Below, in pieces: positions 1,449 to 37,333 of a DNA stretch of 40,992 bases (its first letter is position 1; each line of letters opens with the position of its first letter). Below the pieces are notes generated by a model that did not search any database, was not told the DNA's origin, and was given only the letters and a program-made list of their open reading frames with translations. Made by a program: the position numbers and the translations under genes. The DNA comes from Phoronis australis. Its lineage: Eukaryota; Animalia; Phoronida. The DNA is taken from positions 271,397-312,388 of the forward strand of contig NMRA01000513.1 in assembly GCA_002633005.1 (NCBI GenBank), read 5' to 3'.

Positions 1449-1959
1449 GGTCGGATCTCCCATCTCAGTTTCTAACACCATGTAGCTGCATACCTGCCTT
1501 TAACTAAAATTTGATCCAGGCTTGGCGATCCGTGGAATCGGAGGCTTTTGAAGCATAAGTTTCTAACCCGGCGTGCGTTCAGTAAGGCTATGGCCTACGC
1601 TATGACCTAGCTAAAATCTAGCCAAAGTCACGTGTTCTAATTTAAAATACATGCCATATCTCGCGTAATCTCACAAAATCTTGCTTTTTAGCTAGATCCT
1701 AGCGTTATTTCAGTATTGCATTCCCTTAAAATGAATTTATTTATTTTCATTCGTGTAATACTAGCAGGCCAACTTGTGTAAAAGGGATCCTGGGATTTTA
1801 GCGGATCATTCTTAAGTTACGTTTCAGTATATGCAGTTTACATCCTGAGCTAAAAGCGATTGTTCCACAGTGTTTACCTTGCGTCGATAAATACAGTATT
1901 CTGGAAGAGTGATGAAGAGATCATAATTAATGCACGCTATATACTTTATTTGCTAAACA

Positions 1960-2397
1960 GTGAATGATATTACAAAACAAAATCCAACGAAAGAAAATTC
2001 ATCAACAGGCATGGCAATCAAAATGACTCCTCTTCTACGTGAATCCGCAGAGGGAATTTTAATTTTCCTTTGCATAGCAGCAGCTGCAGTTAACAACTCA
2101 GGACCATGCTTCAAAAAACGTGAGATTGTTGTAAAGTTCCGTGCAAATCGTGCGTCTGCAATCCTGCTCAAGTTTTCCTTGACCAAATCTTACATCTTGC
2201 CATGTCCAATGTCAGATGTAGATTCCTACTTTTCAAACAATGTGGTCAATAATTCCAAAAGCATTTGCGAATGGGCAGTAACTGTTGTTGCTGTCACAGT
2301 ACGCGATAGATGTCACTCACGACCATAAGGAAATCCTCTGCTTGAACACATTATGTTGATTTCAATAAACTTTCGTAGCTGTCGTCCTTCGCACCCT
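1960..2397 (-). pseudogene. Possible Myb/SANT-like (Harbinger accessory protein) relic
   Basis: A stop-interrupted frame reads LLELLTTLFEK*...KM*DLVKENLSRIADARFARNFTTI, after an acceptor-like ttttcacag. A Harbinger-like end (ggcgtgcgttcag) is at about 1571. Similarity is weak. Confidence 0.25.
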
Positions 2398-3763
2398 GTG
2401 AAAATTCAATTATTTTTGTTCATAAACAGTTTCTTACGTAGTCCACGCTGTTAACACAGTATCTCGACGGCGTAATTATACGCATTTGCCATCCTTTGAT
2501 AAACAAAAAAATCAAAAGTAGTGAGGCTCTGGTCACCCGCTTCCGCCGCCCTTGAATGGACACAAGTTTCGCCTCCTCGTCTAGTTAACATGCACCACGA
2601 TTACAAACGGAAGTTCATCTCAAATTGGTTGGATTATTCGCAAAAAGGTAAGACGGCTGAGAGGTTAGGGGCATATCAGCAAGTGAATGATCAAAAGAAT
2701 ATTGAGGTAACATGTTTTTGTTCCTAGCCAATCAGTGGGTAAAATGTGTTCCCTCAATATGACTATCTTGCTAGTGGTGACACAATTGCGTTAAATGGAT
2801 TGCTAAAGACCCATTTGGAGCTATCTTTTAAAAGAATCGTCTTGGTTCATGAGACAGAACCATTTTGAATACGGTGAATTAGTGGTTTTATCATCAAGTT
2901 TAAGCCGTGTGATTTCTCACCTAACACGACACGAGTCTTTAGGAGTTGGTACGTTTTTCCATTGGATAGTTAAAAGCATATGCTCTTTCGACAACGGCAC
3001 TGGGCGAATCTATTGACACAAAGTGGCTGCCCTGAGTATGAATTGTGTTCAGAATACGTTCTCGAAAAACTGATGCAAAGTGAATCACGAAAGGCTATCA
3101 ATTATTAAAGTTACACACAGATTTTCGCCAGATTTCCACATTATATGACCATGCGCCTGAATCCAATAATAATAGGTTTTGTCATGCAACAATTATTTTG
3201 CTCAAGTGTTTACAAATAAGCGTACGTGGCAAATATCAACTTAAATGGAAACTGAAGGCGACCAACCTTTGATTTGAATTGTGTGTGTCCTTTGTTTTAT
3301 GATAGTGCTTTCAGCTTTTACAGATGACCTTTAATAGGATGACACGTCCAATACTTGTCGTTTTGTAAGGATTAGCTACCCGGAATAAGCCATTGTTCAG
3401 CGTGTTCTTTTAGGATTTTTTCCTTGTCAACTACTCAAAAAAGTTCCAAAAACTGTGAGCTTAACTGCAAATTTGCGTGTAGGATCACATGGCCCTAAAT
3501 ACGTGCATGCAAAACGTTGATCGTGAGAAGTCCTCCTGATCATAACTCTTTTATAAAGCTGGCTATTTTCTTACACCAACTGCGTATGAATATGGAAATC
3601 TTCAAAGGAAGTGGAAATATGGATCACAAACAGGGTTACGTCTGGTCAGCACGACACCTAGGTTTTGATGTGGCCAACAGGTGACGTGCAGACCAAACTT
3701 AAACCTAATTGCGAACTATCTGAGAACTTACGCTGTTGCTTCATTCCCGACGGTATCAGTCAT

Positions 3764-3824
3764 CTAGCTTGACTCTTCCTTCTCAATCTCTTTCTCTTCT
3801 TCTTTCGCCTCTTTATCTTCTTCC
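3764..3824 (-). CDS. Coding exon 10: C-terminal EEDKEAKEEEKEIEKEESS-stop
   Basis: Acceptor ttctgcttag. Head nearly identical to the head of exon 8. In-frame TAG at 3766-3764. Confidence 0.82.
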
Positions 3825-6800
3825 CTAAGCAGAAAATATGGAATTGTGTATTTCCTCGATCGTGTCATAAACACAGATGTGGATTTTGTCTTGTATCACT
3901 TTCTTGATTATTGAACAGAACAATTTGGTTTTCTGCAGTTGCTGAACGAATGCAGTCTTTCAAGAATTTATAAGTGTCGAGGACAGCACAATATTTCTCA
4001 AAATTCTTTTTGGTGTTCGGACAAATTTACACTCACTTGGTGGTTTCCTTTACCCTGATAGATATTTTCGCTTGTAATGTAGCGTATGAGAAAACAACAC
4101 AGAATATCCAACAGCCAAGTTCACACTTTAAGACTCACACATTTTACTTGCAGTACTGACGTTCAAGAGTGAAAGTAGGTGAAATGTTTAACAAAGCATC
4201 AAATCTTATTCAAATTTGCAGTCCATATGCGATGCAAAAAGAGTCATACAAGACTCAAACTATTGAAAACGTGATAACTTACGTGATTTGTTTGTCTTCG
4301 TCAGCCTCAAACGTTTTCTTGTTGATGCTTCCACCCTTCAAGATTTGTTTAACTAGTTCATGGGCTGCATTTCCACCCATACCTTGAGCCTTAAGACTGG
4401 CAACTACCTCATCGGTTGAGACTTTTCCGTCTTTGTTGGTATCGAGAACATCGAAAGTTTCGTCCTCTTCCACAGCTTCGTCTTCTTTTTTGTCTCCCCT
4501 GGAATAATGTAAAGGGGTTTTCTTACATTTGACTCGTAAACATTATTGATGAACCTTTTCCAACAATAAAATGAGGTTCATGAAAAGTTACCTCTGATGT
4601 GTGTTTTCCAAAAACTAGTTAAAATTGTAAAAACTTACTTTTCCAACTTGGCTTCAACAGCCTCAAACTCTGCCTTGTCAATACTCCCGTCTTTGTTGGC
4701 GTCGTAAGCCTTCATTGATTCTGTAACGGCTTTGTCGCCTCCTGATGGGTTTGCTGCTTTTATTTCATCACCTGTAATTTTTCCGTCTTTGTTGGTGTCA
4801 ATGGACTCAAAGGTCTTATCTTCGTCCTTGGCTACATCTTTTTCTTCCTCAGCCTCTTCGCTGGCCAAGTCTCTCTTCGCTTTTTCTTCCTTCTCAATCT
4901 CTTTCTCTTCTTCTTTCGCCTCTTTGTCTTCTTCCCTAAACGGAAACTAATTTTCATCCAATTGTGTATTTCCTCCATCGTGTCATCAATACAGATAGGT
5001 ATTTTGTCTCGCAGAATTTTCTTGAGTACGGAACGGAACCCTTTGGTTTTCTGCGGTTGCTGAGTGAACGCAGTGTTTCAAGAATTTAAACTTGTCGAGG
5101 GCAGTATAACATTTCTCAAACTTTTTTTTTGGTTTTCGGACAAACTTACACTGACTTAGTGGTTTCCTATACCCTGACAGATTTTTTGCTTGTTATCAAT
5201 CAACGGCTTGAAATTTAGCGTATGAAAAAACAGCACGAAATCTCAACCAGTCAGTTCACACTTTAACACTCACACATTTTACTTGCAGTACCGACGTTCA
5301 AGAGTGAAAGTACGTGAAATGTTTAACACAGCATCTAATCTTATTCAAATTTGCAGTCCATAGGCGAAGCAAAATGTATCATCCAAGACTCAAACTATTG
5401 AAAACGTGAGAACTTACGTGATTTGTTTGTCTTCGTCAGCCTCAAACGTTTTCTTGTCGATGCTTCCACCCTTCAAGATTTGTTTAACTAGTTCATGGGC
5501 TGCATTTCCACCGATACCTTGAGCCTTAAGGCTGGCAACTACCTCATCGGTTGAGACTTTTCCGTCTTTGTTGGTATCGAGAACGTCGAAAGTTTCGTCC
5601 TCTTCCACAGCTTCGTCTTCTTTTTTGTCTCCTCTGGAATAATGTAAAGGGGTTTTCTTACATTTGACTAGTAACCATTATTGATGAACATTTTCCAACA
5701 ATAAAAATGAGGTTCATGAAAAGTTACCTCTGATGTGTGTTTTCCAACAACTAGTTAACATTGTAAAAACTTACTTTTCCAACTTGGCTTCAACAGCCTC
5801 AAACTCTGCCTTGTCAATACTCCCGTCTTTGTTGGCGTCGTAAGCCTTCATTGATTCTGTAACGGCTTTGTCGCCTCCTGAAGGGTTTGCTGCTTTTATT
5901 TCATCACCTGTAATTTTTCCGTCTTTGTTGGTGTCAATGGACTCGAAGGTCTTATCTTCGTCCTTGGCTACATCTTTTTCTTCCTCGGCCTCTTCACTAG
6001 CCAAGTCTCTTTTGGATTCTTCTTCCTTCTTAATCTCATCCTCCTCTTTTTTCTCCTGTTTCTCAACACCCCTAAAAAGAAAAAATGGCTACATGCGATT
6101 CTATGTTTCCTGGAGGGTGTCTCAAACAGAAATGTGAACTTTGTATTGCCCCTGTTAACACAAATATTGAACAGAATTGTTCCGTCTTCTGCAACACCTG
6201 TAATCGTTACATCGTGCAGTTTTTCTAGAATTTCGAAGTGTCGAGGACAGCCGCTTCACTGAATAGGTTATGTTGGTACAAGAGTTTTTGTCTTTCCTCT
6301 AGACTGTCTCAAATTCGGAAAGAAAAATTACTGTACTATGTGTTTGCACTTCCTTGGACTGTTCAACATGAGGCTTCATCCCGTGAAACTAAGACCTTGG
6401 TTTTGCATTCTTTCAGAGAATGAAACAAAAGTTTTTGCAAGATTTACAAAAGCATTAGAGCACACAATTAAAGCTCTACTGTTGACTTGAGGTGAAAGCA
6501 TTTATTCACGAGATACAATCATTGTGTCAGCAAAACAAATATTGACCTTTGGGCATATGTGACCTTGTCTTTGGGATTCATCCCTATTACTATATTATTA
6601 GTTGAAAATGAGATCTAAAATGAATGTTAAGAAATGTGCCTCTTGGAATCGAAGGCAGGCAGTTATACGTTCTTTAAGTACATTTGGTTTATAAACAGTA
6701 TCAAAACTGAAACTCCATGAGATCTTGTTTGAACATGGGGGGTAGGCAAAACATTATTACGAGACAAAGGCAGACTTAAGAGCTTACTCATATACTTTGT

Positions 6801-9800
6801 CTTCATCTGCTTCAAACTCTTCCTTGGTAACAGCGCCGTCTTTGTTGGTGTCATAGAAGTCCATGCTTTCTTTAGTCTCCTTGGCAGCTTCGTCTTTATC
6901 AAGACCACTAGCTAAGAGAGCGGCATTTATTTCAGCGGATGAGATCTTTCCGTCCTTGTCAGTATCGAGAGAATCGAAATTTTCCGTTTCGTCCAAAGCA
7001 ACATCTTCCTTTTCGTCTCCACTGAAATTGACACAATGGAGTATTATCGAAATTTCCCCAAAGTAGTTGACGACACTTGGTTTTTGCTTAGGAAAAATTT
7101 TACAATGGTTTTAAAATATTTATTCGGTGCGTATATGTACATGTCATCAGTAGATAAAACTCACAATGAACGAAATTTTCTCCGTCTTTTCGCTTGGTTT
7201 CGAAACAAAACTATTCAAATTTAGAAGGCATTTGGACTGTTACTTAAGGGCGCTAGGCAACTACAGGTAAGTAATAAAAGATGCGTGATGAGTGGTGCAT
7301 ACACCCATATGTTTTCTTGTTTCCATATGTCCGTAAAAACGATGAAGCGCGCTTTTCTAAATACGGCTCTACAGGTAAAAAGTCCACAGCCAAACTTTGT
7401 TATGAATGAAGCAAATATTGAGAAATCTGGCAAATTTTATTTCCGGTCGGCCGACAGCACTTGCTGGACGTGTGTGACACTGCAAGAACGCTGCAATTGA
7501 CGTTTGATATTTTAAGAAAGCACGAACTCCTCCCTTACCAATGGAAGAGAGTAGGTATTTGCCACTGTGATTTCCAATTTGTTAAACGATATTGTAGTGT
7601 GTTTCTTAGCAGTTTTACTTGAGACACCCCATTGCTGACGTCATCGAAACAAAATCCTCTCTATTTATGCGTATTCAATCGATAGCGTTTCTAATAAAAA
7701 CTGCACAGGTTATGGACAAACGAAAACAGCACTTATATATTATCGCTAAAGCAGTTTAAGCACACGCACCACATTTTATGCAATGTATAAATTGAAACAG
7801 GCCTTTGAAGGACAAAGGTATTTCCGAACATGGGACATTGGGGGGATAAGGGTTCCACGTGACTTGGGCCACGTTAGGTAAAGCTAGATGCTCGCCAGAG
7901 TAAGCAAGTGGTGTCACGTGTTTCACTTGTTATTCATATAGATATTTGGCCAAACCCGAAAAAGTAGTCCAGCAGAACACAGCTTTGAATAAGTGCACTT
8001 CCACCAGTCTAACCCTTGTTTCCATTTCATCACCAAGGAATTTAAGGGTTTTTTCATTACAAAGCATTTGACGTGCGCTGGGTGCTTAGCTAGTTTTGGT
8101 ATATCAGTGTTTCACATCAAGTTTTTCAATCTGGCCAGATGTCGTAACGTCCTATCAGGTTTACTGTGCATACATCACGCTTTTGGCTCTTCCGCGTTCG
8201 TCACGTGGGTTAATTCTATATCTATATCAGGTTAATATACGGGTTCTTTTACTAGTGTACTTACTCTTCCTCTTCTTTAGTGACGGCGTCAAACTCTTTC
8301 TTGGTAACTGCTCCGTCTTTGTCTGCGTCATAGTCGTCCAAGAACTCTTTTGCTGTCAGTTTGGCTGCAGCATCATCGGCATCTCCCTGGTCTTTGGCAG
8401 CAGCCTCGATCTCAGCGGCTGTGATTTTTCCGTCACCGTCAGCGTCGATTTCATCAAAAGTTGCAATGTCTGCTAGAGCCACCTGTTCGTTTTTGTCTCC
8501 CCTTCGAGAAATATTGTAAGCTCAACAGTACAAGTAAGAAAAATCACAATGTTATATTTAAGGGTTATTTATTTTGTAATACATGAAATACTTTATAATT
8601 TGACGAAAGTTTCCAGTAATCGAATATATCTGAGATATAAAATGGTGTGAATTAAAACAAGTGATGCTATGTCAGTTAATAATTGTTGAAGATATTAATT
8701 GAAGAAACAATTTTATATATCTTTTGTTTTCGCGATTTCTGTATTCGCTCGATCAGCAATTCTACGCATTTTGATTTCAAATGCAATTTTATTATATTGG
8801 CAAACTACATGTACATGTATTTGCAGTCTCAATATGCGTTATATACTTACTTTTCTTCTTTGTCCAGAACAGCTTCAAACTCTTTCTTGTCAACTCCACC
8901 GCTCTTGTCGGTATCGAACGCGTCCATGACTTCTTTAACCGTCTTCTTGATTGCAGCTGAAAGCATTGATTTGAGCTCAGTGGGAGTAACTTTTCCATCA
9001 CCGTTGGCATCGATTCGGTCAAAGGTGTCATCTTCTTCCTTATTGTACTCTTTTTCTTCTTTCTTTGCATCTGCTTCTTCTTCTTTCTCCGTCTTTTTCA
9101 GTTCTGGTCCGTCTTCCTTTTCCTCCTCTTTCTCAACCTCTTTCATCTCTTTTTCCTCTTCCTTCTCTTCTGCCTTGATCTCCTTCAGTTCTTTTCCCAT
9201 TCCTTCTTTTTTCATTTGGCCTTCCATTTGTTGTTCCTCGGTCTCCATGCCTTTTTTGCTCTCGGATTCTCTGTAAGAATAAATGCAGTAAGTTAGGAAT
9301 TGCCACACTTTTTTGTAACCGTCTGAGACACCTTCTTTGAATCTTGAAATAAAGTCTTCGGTTTCTTCTACTCCGAGTTTCGACTGCCATTTATCCTTAT
9401 TCGCGACAAAATTTCCATCCTCTTCCGCATCGAATACCACAGCTGATATTATACAATTATCAACAAATGAGCAAACATGGCATCTTTCTATAACACAAAA
9501 CGCATTGTTGATACGTAAGGTCTGCTGCCATATGTTTACAGGAACGGTTGCGAGCACATTGAACGAGGTGGAATCTGTGTTTCATGTAGTGTCTGATGGA
9601 GATTTTGAAAATTCTAGGTTTTCACACTTTCCTATTTGTACGTGTTCAAGACAGTTTCAGATTATTTTCCTTCGAGGACATCGCAATTTCTCGATCAAAG
9701 ACCCAGCAACAAATGTCAATTACATGTAAAAGTATACACATGTATTTTCTCTAAGTGTTGCAATGAGCATTGGTCATGTATTGAATATAGCGTCAGTACG

Positions 9801-10646
9801 TGAGCTTGTGTTGTTCCAAGCTGATGAGGAGAGTCCATGGGCGTTAGTGTTGATAGAAATAAGCGTTGTGTTCAATTGAACTTGTTCTAGTTTTCAACTC
9901 TTACTCTTCTACTGCTTGTTGCTAATAATTGCCAGTATACAAAGCAGTTGCAATTTTATCAAATGGCCGTTACGATTTATTAGTACATTTGGCACACTCC
10001 AATTTTGAAAATGTGCATTCAATCACGAAACCATGAAAGTAAACCACTTACTTGCGAACTGCGTCGAACTCCGTCTTTGAAACACTGCCGTCTTTGTTAG
10101 TGTCATAGGTGAGCATGAACTCTTCGACTACTGATTCAGCAGCCTTTGAAAGGATTCCCTCGAGTTCATCGGCCGTAACTTTTCCATCCTTGTTTGTGTC
10201 GAGTTGTTCAAATTCCTTCCCTTCACTCTTTTTGAGCTCTGCCTGCTCTTTCGCGCCTTCCTTTTTCATCTCTGCTTCTTCTTCCTTGATGGCATTCCTT
10301 CGCAATACCCCGGCGCTAAAAAGAAGACAGTTTAGACGTCAGGCACAGCAGCACGCACAGAAGCTGACACAAAAACTTTGAATTGTATAAGCAAATGGGT
10401 TTCTTGCTTACACAAATAATCGTGTTATTATCGGGCTGTTCCCATTGTGCCGCTCTACAATATTACTTATTCACTGATCGCGTCTCTTACAGGATTTTTA
10501 CAGCGAATGTGCACGGATTGATAAAACCCTGGCCTAATAAATAGCGACTAAAAATACCACAGAAACTTCATTTGCTCTAAAGTTTGAAACAAATTTACTC
10601 ACCTGCACAGGGCAACCAACAGACATGCGGCGATCAAGTACTTCAT
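3764..10646 (-). CDS. Spliced gene for a secreted multi-EF-hand Ca2+-binding protein (10 coding exons, 2286 nt, 761 aa): join(complement 10603-10646, 10052-10315, 8851-9270, 8265-8501, 6788-7021, 5775-6071, 5418-5633, 4639-4935, 4283-4498, 3764-3824)
   Basis: Every junction has a GTRAG donor and a pyrimidine-rich AG acceptor. All introns are phase 2, all internal exons are multiples of 3, and the joined frame is open from ATG (10646) to TAG (3766-3764). The N-terminus MKYLIAACLLVALCSAG is signal-peptide-like, and there are 14 canonical DxDxDG/DxNxDG-type 12-residue EF loops ending in E. Confidence 0.9.
4283..4498 (-). CDS. Coding exon 9 (module B, copy 2)
   Basis: Acceptor attccag, donor GTAAGT, 216 nt. 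Near-identical to exon 7 (I/M and D/N changes). Confidence 0.9.
4639..4935 (-). CDS. Coding exon 8 (module A, copy 2): linker with KR site and EF-hand pair 7
   Basis: Acceptor ttccgtttag, donor GTAAGT, 297 nt. EF region identical in protein to exon 6. Confidence 0.92.
5418..5633 (-). CDS. Coding exon 7 (module B, copy 1): one canonical and one degenerate EF-hand
   Basis: Acceptor attccag, donor GTAAGT, 216 nt. Loop DTNKDGKVSTDE; second loop shortened to ILKGGSIDKKTF. Confidence 0.9.
5775..6071 (-). CDS. Coding exon 6 (module A, copy 1): linker with KR site and EF-hand pair 5
   Basis: Acceptor ttctttttag, donor GTAAGT, 297 nt. Loops DTNKDGKITGDE and DANKDGSIDKAE. Confidence 0.92.
6788..7021 (-). 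CDS. Coding exon 5: EF-hand pair 4
   Basis: Acceptor aatttcag, donor GTAAGC, 234 nt. Loops DTDKDGKISSAE and DTNKDGAVTKEE. Confidence 0.92.
8265..8501 (-). CDS. Coding exon 4: EF-hand pair 3
   Basis: Acceptor tttctcgaag, donor GTAAGT, 237 nt. Loops DADGDGKITAAE and DADKDGAVTKKE. Confidence 0.9.
8851..9270 (-). CDS. Coding exon 3: long E/K-rich linker and EF-hand pair 2
   Basis: Acceptor ttcttacag, donor GTAAGT, 420 nt. Loops DANGDGKVTPTE and DTDKSGGVDKKE. Confidence 0.92.
10052..10315 (-). CDS. Coding exon 2: end of signal peptide, RR site, EF-hand pair 1
   Basis: Acceptor tttttag, donor GTAAGT, 264 nt. Loops DTNKDGKVTADE and DTNKDGSVSKTE. Confidence 0.92.
10603..10646 (-). CDS. Coding exon 1: signal peptide MKYLIAACLLVALC
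   Basis: Acceptor ttttgttacag directly precedes the ATG. Basic residue then hydrophobic core. Donor AG|GTGAGT. Phase 2 matches the next exon (AG+C = Ser). Confidence 0.88.
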
Positions 10647-11769
10647 CTGTAACAAAAGAATGTAAACTCTGAAGTAATTTATGAAAGCTTGTGTCACGGC
10701 TACACCTCTGTGTTTATATGTAGGTCGTTAATCACAAAGCTGCCTTGCAAATGCTACGGTAAAAGGCAGCCCATTCATTACAAAATTCAATTTTCAGTTG
10801 ACGTGCATTACGCAATTTCCATACGCTATGGCAACAAAATTATTCTATTCAAATTTCCATTTTAGCGTAAATCCTAATTCTGAACTTAATTATCTTATAT
10901 TGCTTGGAGAAATTTGCTTGTGAAAAAAGTGAAATTATCAAAGCCAAGATTGTTCGTATGCAACTCCATGACTATTATCAATGTTGGGTTGAAAATTAAG
11001 TGCAAAAACGGAATTCTGGGACATGTGATCACGTCCTACGCATCTTTTGTTACGATTAATTTTGCTGGTTGTTACTACATGTATTCCGCCATTACTCTGA
11101 AGCTGGAGTTTGGTTTCTTTGTCAAATTTTATTCCTCTGCTTGCAGACAGGAAGAATGCAGTTTCGACAATCGATGAAGTCTTAAGCGCAATCCCAAGAT
11201 TTTGATACGGTACCAAAAGCTCATAAGTAAGAGCCCTGTATGAGTGTTCGTAATAAATCATTTTTTATTTGATTTATAAACCTAAGCCTAATGCTTCGGG
11301 GAATGAAAATGGAACTTAAACATCAATTCTTGATGATGTTCAAGTAGCATTGTCGTTTAGTTCCTGCTATACAGTATTACAGTTAGGAGAATGCAAATGG
11401 TTTTTAATATTGGCGAACGACTTGCAGTTGAAAATTAAAAATATAAATTCGTCAGTGAGTTCAGGCTTTGTCGAAAAGATGACGTTGATTTTGAATAGAT
11501 TATTTTGTGTTGATTTTAGTTATTGTTTAGATTAAAAATCAAATTAAAGAGTATTGTTAAGCCACGCGATAGCAATTTTCATTGACCGCGAGATTACGAT
11601 AATTTAAATTTGTCTCCAGTTACAAACGTTAACTACACCTGCGCAATATACTGCTCAGGCAGGTCCCTTTCACTGACAACGGACCAAATCGTGCCACCTG
11701 GATTTTCCAAACAGAGCCCCTGGATTTTAAAAAACAAACAAACAATGATAACGAAGTAATGTTACTTAC

Positions 11770-11819
11770 TTTGTCTTCTGAATCCGTAGAAGTGTTTTGG
11801 AACTTTCGATGGATGAAGT
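11770..11819 (-). other. Probable non-coding first exon (5' UTR) of the EF-hand gene
   Basis: Starts at Inr-like TCACTTC (A at 11819) and ends at donor AAA|GTAAGT (11769). Splicing to the acceptor at 10647 gives ACAAA|ATG, a typical invertebrate start context. Confidence 0.7.
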
Positions 11820-11850
11820 GAAGTCTTGAATCTTGCACCTCTTTATATAT
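11815..11850 (-). promoter_or_regulatory. Core promoter: TATA box and initiator
   Basis: TATATAAAG begins at 11849, 30 nt upstream of a YYANWYY initiator (TCACTTC, +1 at 11819), and is followed by a splice donor 50 nt later. Confidence 0.7.
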
Positions 11851-14800
11851 CTTAGATCGGGACGATTACAGCATCTGCCTCCTGCTCCGCTAATTTTGAG
11901 CCCTGTTCTATTAATTAACCATAATCATTTTCCTTTCAAGAGAATTTACAGTTTAATTTGCGCTCGTAATTATTGAAATTTGTTTCGGCAACATCTACTG
12001 GTATACCTACCAGAAAAGTTGTGAAAGTTATTCTGCTGCCCGCGATTACATTTGTACGAAACGGCCTTAATGGGAAGCATAATTGCTTTATTGCTTCCCT
12101 GTTGGCAATGAGGGCTGTCAAGTACGGCATCTGCATTCTTAAATTAACACCTACGAGCACTAAAGAATAAGTGTAATTTTAATACGAAACCGTATGTAGT
12201 AACTACTTTTAAAAAAGTCCATTATATATGTCATTGAAGTAATACGGTGAGTTCGATTCTGTTTTTTTGTTTTTAACGTTTCATGAAAGTTTTTAAACTT
12301 TAAAACTTGTTTCCATGGTTGAAATGTGGACCATGCTTGGTCCATGAAGACGTCTGCAACAACATTTGCGACGGTGACTTTCTCTTAAAACAAGAAAAGG
12401 AGATAACATGAATATTCTTGTAGTAGAACTTTGGGATTTCATGCATTTATATCAAGCTGCGGAATGTCCAGTCCGCGCGTCATCTTTTCAATTTTTTAGT
12501 TGTTTTAAAGCCAATCTATACTTTCACTTTCAATACTTGTTTTAAAGTATATGATGACGTACGTCGGTGTCATAGTTTAAACACAAAGTTTCGACCAGAT
12601 GTGGAATACTAACAGTATAAGGGATGTCATGAGACCGAGTATCGTTTTTAGCCGCCTAAACTGGGCTAAATGTACATGTAGCTTTTAATTGCCAAAAGAT
12701 GATCATTCCGAAAATAACACACCCTTCAAATATTAATGGACAAGTGAGAGATGAACGATGACAACAGAAGTTGCAACATGCGACTGAACTTTTTTCAAGC
12801 CTTTTTAAACTTCGTCTGTGGGAGGGGTAGGTGACGCTTGCTCTAATGCCCGCTGATACAGTTATTATCTACGCCTACGGGTAGGGTACCCATTGACCTC
12901 AGAAGCTAACACTAGCGTGTATTAAACTTACTCATAGCCGGTCAGAGTTGCCTTTTTTCATACGAAAAGTTAATGATATATTGTAACATAAAATATTAAA
13001 AGCAATCCCAGGTACTCGTCAACGCTTTAGTGATAACTGGGCTTCATTTCTGCTGCTACCTTTTTTTAAATTTGTCAATCTAGTTTGAGCGAACTCGTGA
13101 AATTTCGTCCATTACCACGACGTGTTATTTGACAATTGTACTCGAGTCGCCTGGTAGACGAGATGGTATCGCCACCTTGAGACTTGGTGCCAACTTGTCT
13201 GGATCTCGCGACCAATGAATGCAGTCCTACAGCGACACGTGCGTAATCGTGGGTCAGGGCTCAATGGCAGAACATGAAAATTCAGTCTGTGATGCCAGAT
13301 GAACAGAGGTCTCGTCCCGTGTTGCGGTACATCGAAAAATTGATCTGACCTGGATTGTTGTTTCCGCTCAAACTTATCAAAGTCCTTCGGGTTTCGATCT
13401 CAATTTAATGACGCTTCTTCGAAATTCTATTGACCACATGGTTTTTCAAATACAAAGTTAGCCCATTCAGCAAAATATTACGCTGGCTGTGAAAATTTTG
13501 AAACCAGAGTAGTGCTGCCTTTGCTGATACCCTCAGAGTTGCAGCGTCGGAACAGAACACACTGCATAGTGGCTGTCTTTTTGAGGTTACATGTACTTAT
13601 ACTAAACAATGAATCCGTCGAAAACATAATTACAATGCCACCTGTGTGTATATTATTATTTTTGAGTCTGAGTTTACAAGTGGCTGTTTAAATTCTACTG
13701 AAATGTCTGCACTAAGAATCAAACGAAATTTTCATTATTACACAGCAAACTTGTTTATCGATGTTTTTTGGTGCCCGCTGACAGCGAGTCTGGACTCGTG
13801 AGTAAAAATATCGAAGAAGTCTACGCAGATCTAGTCTCTCTTCCTTCCTAAGGCCCTTTTCTTTGGCCATGACCGAAAAGTCTTCGGCTGTTTGGACATT
13901 TTTCCTTGGATAACAATGGTCCAAATCCGCTTTACGACTTTCTAGATGCTTTTGTGGTTTGCTTGTATTTCGAAATCGCAAGGAACAAGTTATGCACTAA
14001 GGTCAAGGACACACATACATATGTATGCCTTAAGCAGACTCGAACATTGTATTGGAATGGAAAGCTGCGAAAGTTTTGTATGAAATGTCCTCATTCTTTC
14101 ACAATACTTTCAAGACCCATCGGCCTCCTTCATAAAACGAATTGCGCCGCCCTCATTCAAATAAAGCTTTTCCAAATGACCGTTGTTTCATCAAAACAAA
14201 ACTTTTTTACTATAATTTAATGTCTGCATGTGGTGAACCAACAATAGCTGCAATGGGGTTTTATCACAAACCTACGTTTTAGAAACATAATAAGTGTATC
14301 GTTAACACCCCAATGGACAACAAGCCCTTAATTTACTAAATGATCCTGTAAAGTTATATCTTTGAAAAGTTATTTTGTGTTTTAAAGAGGTGAGAACTGA
14401 GAAAAGGGTATTTTTAAGATTAAATTGTTTCTTTCTGGTGCGCCACAGGATGGCTTAGTAAGTCAAAGTAAATTTTACACGCTTCGAAAACCGAAAAAAT
14501 CACAAGTAAATACACTTGTAAAAACCTCTCATTTACAAAATTTTACCATTTTAATTAATGCACTTCGTCCATGGGTGAGCTTTTTAATCAAAGTCTTCAC
14601 CATTTCCGTCATTGTGCAGAGAGTACATAAATGTTCTTGGATAACTTTCGTCAATTTTCTCTTGCACTCAAACCAGGCTGTAATTACGCCTGGCAATTTC
14701 TGGGTATATATATATATATATTAATAATTCATGTAATTATCATTCATCAGAAGGTTAAATCTGTGTGACACTATATGCAGGTTGGTGCTCTGAACAAACT

Positions 14801-26428: not shown

Positions 26429-27400
26429 GGAATAAGAAATGTAACGGGTTCAAGCATGTGGAACCCAAATAGCCAGCTACCTATTGCATAGTTGACTGCG
26501 GGAGCTGTAAACTAGGAATTACTCTTCACAGCAATGCTCGTTCAGTCCACTAAAATTCAATAAACGACCTTTCGGGCATTGGAATGTCATCCTGCATAAA
26601 TTTTGATAAGTGAATTATAGCATTTTACTCCGTGATTAAGATGAAGCACAGTGCTACTAATAGCTAGACAGGTCTTACACTGTCGGTCCAGCGCTTCTGG
26701 CTATATACAAGCATTTTTGCCATAGGACTGGACCTATAGCGACACAGGAAGTGAGATTCGTCTTCATGTGAACGGTTATAAAATTTTCAATCCCTGAAAC
26801 TCGAGCATGAGAAACTTTTATATGATTAGCACCGTTCCATGTATGTTTACATACCTATCTATGATCATAAATAAGAGTTTTAAATACAGTGCGAATATAC
26901 ATTGATATGAAATGAGAATGTATGTATGAATGTACGTATGCATGTGCGTCGTATGTATCAATGAACATATGTGTATATGTATGGTATATGCGTGTATGTG
27001 TGCATGTGTGTATGTAACCTGTTTATGCTGCCTCAAATACAGATTTTTACGAGTGTTTACGGATCGCGAAATCGTAAGCAATGGCAAGCATCTGTAAAAA
27101 CTCGTCACAAAACGCAACAGCTCGCACACACTCGCACTGAGTCGTAAAAGGATGAGAAAAGCTTCTGACATGTCAAGAGTCCTCTAGCGATCGTTCAAGG
27201 ATGGGATTGTCCGTAAATAACACGATATGGATTGCAAACCGCTCTCAACAACACGTAACCATTAGAAAACTGTTCGTAACAATTCGCAAATAGCTCGCAG
27301 CAATTGTATTTTATGATATCTATATGTACTTGCACACTCGCGCCATTTTTTAAAGACCTGAATCGAAAACGAGGCTCGACGTCCCAGCTCGTCTGCGAGC

Positions 27401-28464
27401 GTGGTGTTTTGCTGTATGTTACTGTGTGACAACTCGACCAAAAGGAAGGAAAGGAAGGGCCCTGTTTCTTTTTATACGCTTCCCAGCGATGCTGAACTGA
27501 GTAAGGAATGGATTTGTGCTATTAGAAGACATCCTGGACGCAAATTTAATGTAAGAACTTGTAATTAAAGTATCGCACACTCTGGCTAATTTATGTCTGA
27601 AGTCGACTCCATTTGTCGGCGACCTGGCTCAGTTGCTTTGGCGAACACAACGTAAAAATGAATTGCAACTAGCAGCCCAGACAATTATACATTTCATCTC
27701 TTTGTCTTAGTGTTTCCTATTATGGCCATTTCCGATCCCAAATCGCATTTTATTCCGACATTTTTACGACTACATTTGCCAATCACAACGACGTGTTGCT
27801 CGCACGTCTTACAGTTACGGTTCTCATTTGCACCGTATGTGTGTGCGTTTGTGGTCGCTCGCCAACGAAGTCACCACCGGTGAAGGCTAGCAGGATTCGT
27901 CACTGAAATATCAGTCAGTCGTCCAATCTGGCGAACCCTTCCCTGAATTGTGTAGTTAAAATGCCATGTGGCCGTCGTAATCAGGTGACAACTGTACATT
28001 TTTATATGTCAATTAATTGTATGTCAGTGACTCGGTGAGCTGTATAGTGCAGGGGGTTAGGCGTAAATGTTAAATCAAAATCCAAAACGGCCAGAAAAAA
28101 TTCTTATGCGCGCCTAGCAACCAGGCTACTCGACATTAGTGTGCTACATTGTTTAGTAAATGTGCTAAAACGTTAACAATCTGAATAAATCGTAATCACT
28201 GTCGTCGAAAATGGGAAGGGTTCCGCATGGGGACCTAGTCGTATAACTATTTTGCAGCAAATATTATCATTGGATTTCACTGTCATCTGTCGGTGTATAA
28301 TATTATATTTTATTTAACCTTGTGTTCTGTTTATTTTTCAGTTGAATAAAAGAACTTCTTTGTGTTCCGTCCATTTCGTGAAAGAAGACTAAGTGTTTAA
28401 GGGCTACACAAGTGTCAGACGTTCATGTACTAAACCATCCGCTGTGCCAAGTTTGTTCCCTGGA
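27401..28464 (+). pseudogene. Spliced THAP zinc-finger coding relic (exons 27401-27550 and 28342-28464), transposon-derived
   Basis: VVFCCMLLCDN...SFYTLPSDAELSKEWICAIRR|LNKRTSLCSVHF..ED*...KPSAVPSLF contains the full C2CH, P, W, F and AVP box. Phase-0 GT-AG intron 27551-28341. The start is GTG and there is one TAA. Confidence 0.8.
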
Positions 28465-30649: not shown

Positions 30650-31700
30650 AATTCTTGAAAATCTGTTAGCAAACAGCAAACACCACATCTGATTCACTGA
30701 ACCAGTCAAGGACAGTGGTACTACCGAACTGAAAATATTAAACATTTGACTCGGTTAATTGCCCGTTCAACATCATTGCACACGGAGTCTGGCAATCTGA
30801 TTTCCTGGGTTTCAGTGACTTCGTGTTTCTCAAACTCATCGACTTGCAATAACAAAGAGGGGAATGACCCCCTCTCAGCCAGTAAGTCATCAATGGCAAA
30901 CCCTTTGTCGACCATAACCTCATCCCCTGCCTCAACGGGTCCAGAATGCCAGAGACCTGACAAATGGCCTTATCTCAGACGGACTAGCCAGTGAACAGCT
31001 TTGACACAAATTTTCCCGGGGCCAGACGGGGCCACAGCAACTAAACATTTTCAGTGGTGTATTTCTGCCTTTGTAGTGCGAATAAAATTCAGAATTTAGC
31101 ACCATACTTGACGGTTTTTGGACCCACATTTCTGTACAGTCCAAGATCACTCGCAGTTTGGATACTTATCCAAGAACGCAGCAGGCATGTATTTCTTAAC
31201 CTTTTTCCTACTTGGCCAAATAGAAACCGAGCCAAAAACACTGTAAAGGTAATTCACCCAAGTAAGAACAATTCTGCATAATAGCTGATTCGTGAACGTT
31301 GTATATGTCTGCTAGTTCTCGCTCTTTAGTACCAACTCTCGGGCGAAGCACAGTGTAATGTTAATGAAGTCTGCATGGTCAACCAGTGTAATCTTTGAAA
31401 ACGACAACATGACAAACGAGTGGTTTTACACTCTCCGTCTCTGGGATTACGTAATCATGCTCTCAGCTGTAGGTACAATGCACTGGAAGAAGACCACGAG
31501 GAGGGCTTATGTACGAAATCCTGCGTAGTGTAGCACTAAAGAATTGTCATCTTTGGCGATAGTTGAGTATAAATGTAAATGTGCATTTTCCCGCAGCTTG
31601 CCATTGCCTATTTGCAGACTACATGTATGTCTCTGTTATCGCAGCTGCCAGTCTCTTGTCAGCCGTGTCACCGGGGGTACGCAATAGTCGTGGTCGCAAC
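30650..31700 (-). mobile_element. Degenerate ISL2EU (IS5/Harbinger-related DDE_Tnp_4) transposase
   Basis: ILDCTEMWVQKPSS...YSHYKGRNT, GDEVMVDKGF and VERAINRVK give the D-D-E triad. An upstream HTH-like segment reads ELADIYNVHES...WVNYLY. It is convergent with YqaJ, as in ISL2EU, and is cut off at the N at 31719. Confidence 0.85.
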
Positions 31701-35387: not shown

Positions 35388-36655
35388 TTGATAGGGGAGC
35401 TGTCTCCTGTTCAAAAGAAAATTGTGTCATCTGTTGTTGGGTTCGGCGATCCTAGCAGTGTTAAGAGTAAACATGCGTTTTCAAATGTGAACTCGTGGGG
35501 TAATGTTTTTCATAGTGACCTTGTTCGCTTACCCGCATTTTCAGGTAGTGAGAGCTCGGGTATTTCCTTTCAACAGTGGTTAGGTGAAGTTCAGGGTATG
35601 CAGGTTACGTTGCAAAACGATGGTTTTCTGAAACAAGCGATCAGACGCTCGTTGAGGGGCAGTGCGGCTCATTTGCTTGAATGTGATTTGTCTGTAAACG
35701 AATTGCTTAGTAAGTTAAAGTCTAGATACGGTGATGTGTTAGCTGTTGGAAAATTGTTGAAAAATTCTACAGACAGGATAAAAATGAAAGCGTTACCCAA
35801 TGGGCTGGGCGCTTAGAGAAATTAGTAGTTCAAATGAAAATGTCTGAATCATGCCCCATTCCGAATAAGGCACTGCCATCTGTGCTAAAATCACATTTTG
35901 TGTCTGGTTTGCTGTCAAATGACGTCAGACTTGGTCTAAAGCATTTTGTGGAACACAATAGTGAAGAATCATTTGACGAGCTACTGATTTGTGCCCGTCG
36001 TTTAGACACTGAGTTCATCAGAAAACCGCAGTCACATCACTCTCTTGATAGTGTCACTGTTGGAGTACCCGATACCGATGAGTCAATTGATGTTTTGTTT
36101 TTATACAAGGGTTACGTTAGTGTCACTGTTGGAGTACCCGATACCGATGAGTCAATTGATGTTTTGTTTTTGGTTGTTCTAAACACTTATAATTTCCATG
36201 TTCCTGTTATGGTAGGTACTAATGCTTTGCGTGTTTTGATCGATCTCGTTGATAATGACAATCGCTCGGACTGGTTGCTGTTGTTGAAAAATGTCATGTT
36301 TAATCGTGAAACCTCTCTTCCAGGCGTAGTTATGACTGACAAACCTGTTACCATTCCGTCTGGGATGTCCCAAATAATCGATGCTTGTATTTGTGTTAAC
36401 CCATGTACATCTTGTAGTTTACAGGTTGTCACCGAAGAGTATGGTTCACTGTCACTTCCTAGTAACTTGCAGGTGTGGCCCGCATTGCATGAGATTAACC
36501 CTGGGGATCATATGATTCCTGTTAGAGTCACGAATGCGGGTTGTAGGTCTGTTACTGTTCCTGCTGGTTCAAGCATCTGCAGCTTGGCACCGGTGGATCA
36601 GACGGCAGCTGAAATTCCGTGTTCTGATTCAGCTGAGAATTCAAACCAGAATTAA
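35388..36655 (+). pseudogene. gag: Gypsy gag (PNMA-like capsid) plus protease remnant, frameshifted and internally deleted
   Basis: RLPAFSG...SFQQWLGEV...KQAIRRSLRGSAA...LKSRYG is a PNMA/Gypsy gag motif set. FLVV...PVMVGTNAL is a protease C-terminus; the D[ST]G active site is missing. Confidence 0.8.
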
Positions 36656-36854
36656 GTATTGAGCAGCGCGCCCGAGCCTCAAGTTTACTCAATGAATATC
36701 AAGATATTTTTGCGCAGAATGATTTGGATCTTGGTCATGTTACTCAGGTTCAACAAGATCAGACGGCAGCTGAAATTCCGTGTTCTGATTCAGCTGAGAA
36801 TTCTGAGGAGTTCATAATAAACCCAGAATTAATATAAGTATTAAGCAGCGAACT

Positions 36855-37333
36855 GTGTATTTGGGTCACGTGATTTCTCAACAAGGGGTCGAATGTGATC
36901 CCGATAAGATAGCGGTTGTGTTGGATTGGCCTGTTCCAAAGTGTGTGAAAGTCTTGCAAAGTTTTTTAGGTTTCGTGGGGTTTTACCTTCTCTTTATTCA
37001 AGACTTTGCATCAATTGCTCAGCCTCTTCATGCACTTACAAAGGGAGTAATGGGTCGTAAACGTAATTCTTCTGATACCTCAAATGGACTTTTTGTTTGG
37101 GGATAAAGAACAGTATGCTTTTCAAGAACTTAAACGCAGGTGCACGAGTAGCCCTGTACTGGCATTTGCTGATTTTACGCTGCCATTTTCTGTGCACATT
37201 GACGCCAGCATGACGTCGTTAGGTGCGGTATTACACTGTATATCAGGAGTCAGGGGGATTGAATAGACCCATTGCCTTTGGGAGTCGTTGTTTGAGTGAA
37301 GCCGAGAAACGCTATCCTGTACATAAACTTGAG
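36855..37333 (+). pseudogene. pol: Gypsy pol fragment (RT C-terminus and RNase H N-terminus)
   Basis: YLGHVIS..GVECDPDKI...WPVP...LQSFLGFVGFY; AFQELK...SPVLAFADFTLPF.VHIDAS..LGAVL; RPIAFGSRCLSEAEKRYPVHKLE. Frameshifted. Confidence 0.9.

What the first reader, a model, noticed from the sequence alone, without database searches (positions are those of the whole stretch)
3764..11850. Secreted 16-EF-hand 'beads on a string' protein with no ER-retention signal
Seen: manual splicing gives 761 aa, with a signal peptide, 8 EF-hand-pair modules and E/K-rich linkers. The mature chain has no Cys, Trp or N-glycosylation sequon, and ends ...EESS rather than HDEL/KDEL. Known: most EF-hand proteins are cytosolic, and secretory-pathway ones (CREC family, MCFD2, SPARC, nucleobindin) have far fewer hands and other architectures. 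Inference: this is a lineage-specific, high-capacity extracellular Ca2+-binding protein that I cannot assign to a named family. It could be a biomineral matrix, adhesive, mucus or gland-secretion component. The sharp TATA+Inr promoter fits strong tissue-specific expression. The ORF track splits the gene into fragments and misses the signal exon.
Basis: partly seen in the sequence, partly recalled or inferred. Interest (0 to 1): 0.85.

Follow-up and report, generated by a model that had tools for sequence, protein, structure and literature searches.

The report
Secreted eight-module calcium-binding protein
An animal gene, shown by RNA reads to be spliced and active in only some samples, encodes a very acidic protein of eight repeated EF-hand modules behind a predicted signal peptide; it likely loads calcium into a secreted matrix, and no close relative turned up in the searches made.

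Summary
The gene is real. Ten minus-strand coding exons join to 761 aa, and stranded RNA reads support all 10 predicted introns, including both sides of the signal exon. Expression is about 28-42 RPKM-like in two runs and 0.2 in a third. There are three corrections: (1) 14 loops are canonical and 2 are degenerate, so it is not 16; (2) a further 3'-UTR exon lies at about 1945-2395; (3) the linkers are not enriched in single-alpha-helix salt pairs. Each EF-hand pair sits on its own phase-2 exon. Modules 7-8 are a recent 1136-nt tandem duplicate of 5-6, present in other animals' RNA and apparently homogenised. No orthologue was found (best 55% over 50 or more residues among 385 fetched proteins). 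Signal-plus-many-EF-hand proteins exist elsewhere, and oyster larval shells hold acidic EF-hand proteins of similar composition. It is not a CREC member. Best reading (inferred, 0.5): a lineage-specific secreted Ca2+ store and polyanionic scaffold for an extracellular matrix, mineral or mucous. Convertase cutting into modules is a live rival (5 of 6 Arg in dibasic sites). Taxon and tissue are unknown. Verdict: new variant of a known kind, interest 0.45.

The parts
11842..11849 (-). TATA box (TATATAAA)
   Evidence: sequence; 30 nt from the Inr A; RNA 5' ends just downstream
11770..11819 (-). Exon 1, 5' UTR, starting at the predicted Inr +1 (11819)
   Evidence: junction 11770/10646 in 15 (X6), 29 (X7) and 1 (X8) reads and an X5 contig; read ends at 11798 and 11803, contig to 11813
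10603..10646 (-). Exon 2: ATG and predicted signal peptide (MKYLIAACLLVALCS, last codon completed by exon 3)
   Evidence: both junctions in RNA (39 and 56 reads for 10603/10315); the only strongly hydrophobic stretch, 3.12 against 1.22 best elsewhere
10052..10315 (-). Exon 3: signal end, RR site, module 1 (two canonical loops)
   Evidence: AlphaFold2 model is an EF-hand pair
8851..9270 (-). Exon 4: 84-residue E/K-rich linker + module 2
8265..8501 (-). Exon 5: module 3
6788..7021 (-). Exon 6: module 4
5775..6071 (-). Exon 7: E/K linker with KR site + module 5
5418..5633 (-). Exon 8: module 6 (one canonical loop, one degenerate)
4639..4935 (-). Exon 9: module 7; a chimera whose first 60 nt match exon 11 (56 of 60) and whose last 237 nt match exon 7 (231 of 237)
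4283..4498 (-). Exon 10: module 8, copy of exon 8 (211 of 216 nt; one canonical loop, one degenerate)
3732..3824 (-). Exon 11: acidic tail, stop TAG at 3766-3764, 32 nt of 3' UTR, then a GT donor
1945..2395 (-).
   Evidence: joint 2394/3731 CT..AC in 6 X6 reads; variant form of the joint in 22 (X6) and 58 (X7) reads and an X5 contig covering 1954-2398; located

Best explanation
This is a spliced, sample-restricted animal gene whose very acidic product carries 14 canonical EF-hand loops in eight exon-encoded modules, is predicted to be secreted, and likely works as a high-capacity calcium store and polyanionic scaffold for an extracellular matrix (mineralising or mucous). Shown: gene structure, expression, composition, loop sequences, and growth by duplication of phase-2 exons. 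Inferred: (1) the N-terminal hydrophobic stretch sends it into the ER; (2) with no retention tetrapeptide or membrane anchor it follows the secretory route; (3) at luminal and extracellular Ca2+ levels canonical loops would be permanently filled, so it is a store or scaffold and not a switch; (4) bound Ca2+ folds each pair, and further weakly bound Ca2+ screens the net charge of about -113, letting the protein condense in vesicles and carry Ca2+ to where it is released; (5) module number is raised by unequal crossing-over seeded in the similar E/K-rich linker DNA.
For: All 10 predicted introns are in stranded RNA. Expression is 27.9 and 42.4 RPKM-like in X6 and X7 against 0.2 in X8, where the organism's repeat RNA is still present. 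There is one strongly hydrophobic segment, at the N-terminus, and no transmembrane segment; the end is EESS. 14 loops keep D1, D/N3, G6 and E12. Six of 8 modules pass Pfam's EF-hand-pair cut-off, and module 1 models as an EF-hand pair (pTM 0.52, best Z 9.1, rmsd 2.6 over 59 residues). Alleles: 15 synonymous and 20 non-synonymous codons among the 40 listed sites, pN/pS about 0.32, p=0.001 against neutral. Composition matches an oyster larval-shell EF-hand protein (Asp 12.2%, Glu 18.5%, pI 4.4; PMC6231486 passages), and EF-hands were found in the shell proteomes of all seven lophotrochozoan lineages compared (PMC13425148 passages).
Against: There is no direct evidence of secretion, localisation or Ca2+ binding, and SignalP was not available. 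The taxon and the tissues of X5-X8 are unknown, so it is not known whether the animal mineralises. About 30-40 RPKM-like is moderate, not the extreme level expected of a bulk secretion in its own gland (whole-body dilution could explain this). Avoidance of loop ligands by amino-acid changes is not significant (0 observed, 2.0 expected, p=0.11), and the variant list is truncated (40 of 208 rows). The entering helix of each first hand has few hydrophobic residues and is low-confidence in the model (pLDDT under 50 at 22-32), and module 2 folded alone gave no clear pair (pTM 0.29). The oyster proteins have one pair plus an acidic tail, a different architecture.
Confidence: 0.5

Rival explanations
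1. A polyprotein precursor: proprotein convertases would cut at the dibasic sites (RR20-21, RK102-103, KR420-421, KR591-592) and release separate one- to three-module EF-hand proteins plus a short propeptide. This is compatible with a later matrix role for the pieces.
For: 5 of the 6 Arg residues sit in dibasic sites (p=0.015 by shuffling; 4 of 5 and p=0.034 without the duplicated unit). RR follows the predicted signal peptide by 4 residues. The sites lie in linkers, not in hands.
Against: The test was chosen after seeing the pattern. Lys is 16% and there are 15 KK pairs. No basic residue at P4 (no furin-type R-x-x-R). Modules 2-4 have no such site between them.
Confidence: 0.2
2. A luminal Ca2+ buffer of Golgi or secretory granules (chromogranin- or Cab45-like in role) that condenses cargo and has no job once outside.
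For: Acidic, Cys-free, unglycosylated, E/K-rich with dibasic sites. These are traits of granins (recalled). Cab45 is a Golgi-lumen EF-hand protein that binds cargo Ca2+-dependently (PMC12516920 passages).
Against: No HEEF/HDEF/HDEL-type end. Expression differs about 150-200-fold between samples, whereas CREC proteins are described as ubiquitous. No conserved orthologue was found.
Confidence: 0.15
3. A Ca2+-chelating component of a saliva or defensive secretion, released onto another organism to damp its Ca2+-dependent responses, like leafhopper NcSP84.
For: [quoted passage not shown] The gene is polymorphic and sample-restricted.
Against: No homology was shown. The related leafhopper RdCBP is described with a single EF-hand domain (PMC8897447 passages). 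pN/pS about 0.3 gives no sign of positive selection. In seawater-like Ca2+ the loops would already be filled (inference).
Confidence: 0.07
4. A divergent CREC-family ER chaperone.
For: Signal peptide, multiple EF-hands, acidic.
Against: 14+2 hands against six; 761 aa against 315-362; no retention tetrapeptide; one-module-per-exon build with 42-57% identity between non-duplicate modules.
Confidence: 0.03
5. The eight-module form is an assembly artefact (false tandem duplication) or a pseudogene with a premature stop.
For: Modules 5-6 and 7-8 are 97-98% identical in DNA, and many reads map across the copies (3823/5417: 40 and 27 reads, against 3823/4282: 5 and 19). The stop codon was not displayed in the read tables, and a phase-2 donor follows it by 32 nt.
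Against: Collapsed-contig depth is 2.05 times the single-copy depth in X5 and 2.4-2.5 times in X6 and X7. The chimeric exon 9 is present as its own X5 contig. Read-through of the stop gives only a short unrelated tail, and alleles differ by 1 nt in length after the stop.
Confidence: 0.04

Closest known systems
Acidic EF-hand shell-matrix proteins of oyster larvae (pfu_aug2.0_3796.1_22455, CGI_10012241; PMC6231486, passages and supplement rows seen)
   Same: EF-hand pair with an Asp/Glu-rich chain, pI 4.3-4.4, no database relatives; CGI_10012241 has a signal peptide; the Asp and Glu shares of the Pinctada protein are nearly the same as here
   Different: One pair followed by an S/D/E-rich tail (39 and 54 kDa), against eight interspersed pairs with E/K linkers (84 kDa); they were found in shell by mass spectrometry, this one has no such evidence; no alignment was made
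Abalone Hdh-SMP5 (PMC10741955, abstract seen) and pearl-oyster extracellular EF-hand protein (Huang 2007, seen only as a reference title)
   Same: Secreted EF-hand proteins linked to shell formation; Hdh-SMP5 is Asp-rich
   Different: 134 aa with three EF-hand regions; no modular amplification
CREC family (Cab45, reticulocalbins, calumenin; PMC12516920, passages seen)
   Same: Signal sequence, multiple EF-hands, secretory pathway, acidic
   Different: Six hands, 315-362 aa, C-terminal HDEL/HDEF/HEEF, broadly expressed and conserved; here 14+2 hands, 761 aa, ends EESS, sample-restricted, no orthologue found
Leafhopper salivary NcSP84 / RdCBP (PMC4409333, PMC8897447, passages seen)
   Same: About 80-84 kDa, gland-specific, secreted, EF-hand motifs, lineage-restricted
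   Different: RdCBP is described with a single EF-hand domain and acts in plant phloem; no sequence comparison was made
Unnamed multi-EF-hand proteins with signal-like N-termini in metagenome collections (P0076, 732 aa; P0019, 677 aa; P0016, 1150 aa ending HDEM)
   Same: Hydrophobic N-terminus and 15-27 EF loops; P0076 has no Cys, no Trp and no HDEL-type end, and P0019 has no Cys
   Different: P0019 and P0016 are about 24% identical over the length; P0076 matches the module profile at only 30% over 54 columns; D+E 17-22% against 32%; no long E/K linkers. Read as convergence; all are single-member, unnamed clusters

Membership tests
EF-hand superfamily | 12-residue loop with ligands at 1, 3, 5, Gly6, hydrophobic 8, Glu12, in helix-loop-helix pairs | tested here: met
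   14 of 16 loops canonical; 6 of 8 modules above the PF13499 cut-off; module 1 model matches EF-hand pairs, Z up to 9.1
EF-hand superfamily | Measured Ca2+ binding | not testable with these tools
   needs ITC, CD or 45Ca overlay
CREC family | N-terminal signal sequence | tested here: met
   hydropathy 3.12 over 11 residues at the N-terminus only, exon in RNA; no dedicated predictor available
CREC family | Six EF-hands in a chain of about 315-362 aa (PMC12516920) | tested here: not met
   14+2 hands, 761 aa
CREC family | C-terminal HDEL/HDEF/HEEF-type tetrapeptide | tested here: not met
   ends EESS in the window; the stop codon itself was not displayed in the read tables
CREC family | Phylogenetic placement of the hands with CREC members | not tested
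   no tree built; no CREC sequences were fetched
SPARC/osteonectin | Cys-rich follistatin-like domain and disulfide-bonded EC domain (recalled) | tested here: not met
   no Cys in the mature chain; the PF10591 match of module 1 (38.3 bits) overlies the EF-hands
Acidic EF-hand shell/skeletal matrix proteins (functional class) | Signal peptide, EF-hand pair, high Asp/Glu, pI about 4.3-4.4 | tested here: met
   against PMC6231486
Acidic EF-hand shell/skeletal matrix proteins (functional class) | Present in the mineral proteome or expressed in calcifying tissue | not testable with these tools
   tissue and taxon of the runs not given
Calmodulin-like cytosolic sensors | No signal peptide; four hands in about 150 aa | tested here: not met
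   signal exon expressed; PDB hits to calmodulin and CDPK are loop-level, best E 4.8e-17
Single-alpha-helix (ER/K) linkers | Enrichment of i+3/i+4 acid-base pairs | tested here: not met
   0 of 5 linker segments enriched against shuffles, p 0.17-0.90, all net negative
Convertase-processed polyproteins | Dibasic sites between repeated units | tested here: inconclusive
   5 of 6 Arg in dibasic sites, p 0.015-0.034, post hoc; absent between modules 2, 3 and 4

The most novel reading that the evidence does not exclude
An animal-made EF-hand polyprotein: a secreted precursor built by ongoing exon-module amplification and concerted evolution, condensed by Ca2+ in secretory vesicles and cut at dibasic sites into calcium-loaded modules that build or set an extracellular material. 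It would define a lineage-specific secreted family with no counterpart among CREC, SPARC or one-pair shell proteins.
Probability: 0.15. Interest if true: 0.7.

Novelty: new variant of a known kind. Interest (0 to 1): 0.45.

Why it matters
Secreted acidic EF-hand proteins recur in shell and gland proteomes but are usually small, with one pair. A validated gene with eight exon-encoded pairs shows how such a protein can be scaled up by symmetric-phase exon duplication, with the latest step still readable (chimeric exon 9, 1136-nt unit, homogenised copies). It gives a ready test protein for what canonical EF-hands do outside cells, where Ca2+ is saturating. It is unlikely to be in current protein collections, because ORF-based callers split it. 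It does not, on present evidence, imply new chemistry.

Tried and rejected
No whole genome is held for this window, so paralogues elsewhere in the genome were not searched. Within the window, no EF loop or tblastn hit lies outside the gene. Exon 4 against longer proteins: 0 of 7987 candidates at E<=0.001. Module profile: 558 of 7990 longer and 956 of 7991 similar-length candidates hit, all generic EF-hand proteins among the 120+120 listed. phmmer over 1.84 billion representatives: 4716 hits, the best 150 at 28-47% identity. Metagenome contigs: 595 pattern matches, none confirmed. ESM Atlas: best scores 0.85, leads only. Foldseek PDB: no match at E<=0.001, top rows are EF-hand domains. Rfam: 0 hits. 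Earlier scan notes: nothing. The 244-aa stop-to-stop ORF 8847-9581 extends upstream of exon 4, but RNA joins at 9270, so the extension is intronic. Read-through into exon 12 as coding was rejected: the three frames give short or unrelated tails, and alleles differ in length after the stop. SAH linkers were rejected by the salt-pair test. Horizontal transfer from bacteria was considered because the best profile hits are bacterial-looking secreted EF-hand proteins, but identity is at loop-consensus level and the collections are mostly microbial, so it is not supported. Literature searches listed no paper describing an animal secreted protein with 14-16 EF-hands; only listings and selected passages were read (40 of 165 listed, 20 of 107, 15 of 23), and subscription journals are mostly missing. 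Passages of PMC11685980 and bioRxiv 10.64898/2026.10.05.756843 were not relevant.
Full report
1. The observation. The region holds a minus-strand gene with spliceosomal introns. Joining ten exons (10646-10603, 10315-10052, 9270-8851, 8501-8265, 7021-6788, 6071-5775, 5633-5418, 4935-4639, 4498-4283, 3824-3764) gives an open frame of 761 aa. All nine coding introns are GT-AG and phase 2, and exons 3-10 are multiples of three. The protein is 84 kDa, pI 4.37, net charge about -113, D 12.2%, E 19.3%, K 15.9%. Cys occurs only at 8 and 14, with no Trp and no sequon, and the chain ends EKEESS. The only strongly hydrophobic stretch is at residues 4-14 (3.12 over 11 residues; best elsewhere 1.22). That reads as a signal peptide, probably cut after A16 or G17 (inference; no SignalP here).

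2. RNA evidence. Four runs labelled as the same organism were laid on 3000-12200. X6 and X7 are stranded, with first mates on +, so the RNA is the minus strand. Junction reads in X6/X7: 11770-10646 15/29; 10603-10315 39/56; 10052-9270 43/54; 8851-8501 19/53; 8265-7021 29/33; 6788-6071 47/59; 5775-5633 24/33; 5418-4935 29/33; 4639-4498 16/29; 4283-3824 5/19. A further 40/27 reads join exon 11 to the near-identical exon 8, which I read as cross-mapping between copies. 5' ends pile at 11798 and 11803 and a contig reaches 11813, just inside the Inr (+1 at 11819, 30 nt from the TATA box at 11849). That motif pair occurs at four places in the window, so the RNA ends, not the motif, carry the claim. 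Rough expression from bin depth is 27.9 (X6), 42.4 (X7) and 0.2 (X8) RPKM-like. X8 still shows the organism's repeat RNA, so the gene is close to silent there; what distinguishes the samples is not given.

3. Corrections. (a) Fourteen loops are canonical (13 match the PROSITE-type pattern and one has Gly at position 7). The second hands of modules 6 and 8 have lost six residues and ligands 1, 3, 5 and 12, and these modules fall below Pfam's pair cut-off (21.5 and 21.3 against 30 bits) while the other six pass (34.6-45.8). (b) The transcript continues past the stop: a donor at 3731 joins an exon starting at 2395 (6 exact reads in X6; a variant form in 22 and 58 reads and an X5 contig), which runs to about 1954, with AATAAA at 1950-1945. 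The intron lies 32 nt after the stop. Alleles differ by one base in length after the stop, and read-through gives only short unrelated tails, so I take the exon as 3' UTR. Neither read table displayed the stop codon itself, because the lists were truncated (40 of 208 and 40 of 197 rows). No indel was listed in 3740-3824, and the X5 contig differs there at four bases, two of them listed and neither in the stop. (c) The E/K linkers show no enrichment of i+3/i+4 salt pairs (0 of 5 segments), so they are not typical single-alpha-helix spacers by that test.

4. How the gene grew. Each EF-hand pair lies on one symmetric phase-2 exon. Non-duplicate modules are 42-57% identical. Modules 7-8 repeat modules 5-6 at a spacing of 1135-1136 nt: exon 10 against exon 8, 211 of 216 nt; intron 9 against intron 7, 96%; intron 10 against intron 8, 86%. 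Exon 9 matches exon 11 over its first 60 nt (56 of 60) and exon 7 over its last 237 nt (231 of 237). That is what an unequal crossover between the similar E/K-coding starts of exons 7 and 11 would leave (77% alike; inference). The duplicate is not an assembly error: collapsed depth is 2.05 times single-copy depth in X5 and 2.4-2.5 times in X6 and X7, so more than two copies in some alleles is not excluded. At 4723, 4731, 4732 and 4768, nearly all reads differ from the window at double depth (for example 94 of 96 and 140 of 140), while both window copies share the window base. Both copies thus carry the same variants within a haplotype, which suggests concerted evolution; homogenisation by the assembler is an alternative. 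Among the 40 listed variant sites, 15 codons change synonymously and 20 non-synonymously (pN/pS about 0.32, p=0.001 against neutral). None hits loop positions 1, 3, 5, 6 or 12, but only 2.0 were expected (p=0.11).

5. Structure. AlphaFold2 on module 1, with the eight-module alignment, gives a helix-loop-helix pair with the short two-strand pairing (mean pLDDT 71.9, pTM 0.52). It aligns to many EF-hand domains (best Z 9.1, rmsd 2.6 A over 59 residues; 7 of 48161 chains at Z>=8). Foldseek gave no match at E<=0.001 but ranked EF-hand domains first. Exon 4 folded alone gave a poor model (pTM 0.29). Whether modules are independent beads or pack together is untested.

6. Relatives. None is close. 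See (counts under Tried and rejected). Among all 385 fetched proteins, the best identity to any of modules 1-6 over 50 or more residues is 55%, and none reaches 28% D+E, against 32% here. The 40 best full-length alignments to the first 120 are 21-32% identical. An orthologue would be expected to top the phmmer list (inference), so it is probably absent from that library, which may simply lack this animal group. The architecture recurs by apparent convergence: 143 of 262 hits start with Met and a hydrophobic stretch. P0076 (732 aa, 15 pattern loops, no Cys or Trp, ends SSSEED) is the nearest in plan, but matches the module profile at only 30% over 54 columns and is unnamed.

7. Context. No other host gene was recognised in the window. 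Of 159 ORFs scanned outside the gene's exons, the credible Pfam hits are transposon relics: THAP at 27362-27565, DDE_Tnp_4 at 30724-31165 and RT-RNaseH at 37051-37263. GC is 39.6%, and TACATGTA occurs 12 times against 1.2 expected. DNA run X1, possibly the source sample and so not independent, holds haplotypes identical to the window and others 5-8% different in non-coding pieces. This fits a highly polymorphic invertebrate, probably marine (recalled association, not tested). The taxon was not determined, which limits any claim about mineral.

8. Mechanism. Shown: structure, expression, composition, loops, duplication history. Inferred: entry to the ER through the signal peptide; onward secretion because there is no retention signal or anchor; permanent filling of canonical loops at luminal and extracellular Ca2+ (established EF-hand affinity range, recalled), which makes a sensor role unlikely; and additional weak Ca2+ binding by the acidic linkers, condensing the chain. 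I therefore favour a secreted Ca2+ store and scaffold for an extracellular matrix (0.5), without being able to choose between mineral and mucous or adhesive material. Rivals are a convertase-cut polyprotein (0.2; 5 of 6 Arg in dibasic sites, p=0.015, post hoc), a purely luminal granule buffer (0.15), a salivary or defensive chelator (0.07), an artefact or pseudogene (0.04) and a CREC chaperone (0.03).

9. Comparison with what is known. CREC proteins have a signal sequence, six hands, 315-362 aa and an HDEL/HDEF/HEEF end (PMC12516920, passages); two of these features are tested and not met, so it is not filed there. Oyster larval shells contain acidic EF-hand proteins of almost the same composition (Asp 12.2%, Glu 18.5%, pI 4.4) but with a single pair and an acidic tail (PMC6231486, passages and supplement rows). 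EF-hands occur in all seven lophotrochozoan shell proteomes compared (PMC13425148, passages). Abalone Hdh-SMP5 is a 134-aa secreted EF-hand protein (PMC10741955, abstract). [quoted passage not shown] So it probably works like the acidic secreted EF-hand proteins, but it is a member of no named family that I could test. Unseen supplements of shell, skeleton or mucus proteomes could hold a relative.

10. Verdict. A real, well-supported orphan gene: a new variant of a known kind (secreted acidic EF-hand protein), notable for eight exon-encoded modules and a readable, recent amplification. Interest 0.45.

Noticed in passing
window 10665/11769: Minor alternative joint about 19-20 nt upstream of the main exon-2 acceptor (3 and 5 reads in X6 and X7), in the 5' UTR; the main acceptor falls directly on the ATG.
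   Followed up: no
window 1600-1750: Very high-copy repeat (X1 depth about 1.8e5 against about 100 for flanks), transcribed on both strands.
   Followed up: no
window 3666-3703 and 11332-11373: Short interspersed repeats inside introns 11 and 1, with many loose-ended reads on both strands in all RNA runs.
   Followed up: no
window 27362-27565 (+), 30724-31165 (-), 35388-37263 (+): Transposon relics: THAP domain, DDE_Tnp_4 fragments, and a broken LTR-retrotransposon-like stretch with an RT-RNaseH match.
   Followed up: partly
window 1984-3405: DNA run X1 holds two haplotypes, one identical to the window and one 5-8% different in non-coding pieces; the second shares alleles with RNA runs X5-X7. 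This is very high polymorphism.
   Followed up: partly
window 2099-2281: A 180-181 nt deletion allele within the 3'-UTR exon, in X1 contigs and 2 X6 reads.
   Followed up: no
P0076: Unnamed 732-aa protein from a 2305-nt contig: signal-like N-terminus, repeated EF-hand units, no Cys or Trp, no HDEL. Apparently an independent origin of the same plan.
   Followed up: partly
whole window: TACATGTA occurs 12 times against 1.2 expected from base composition.
   Followed up: no
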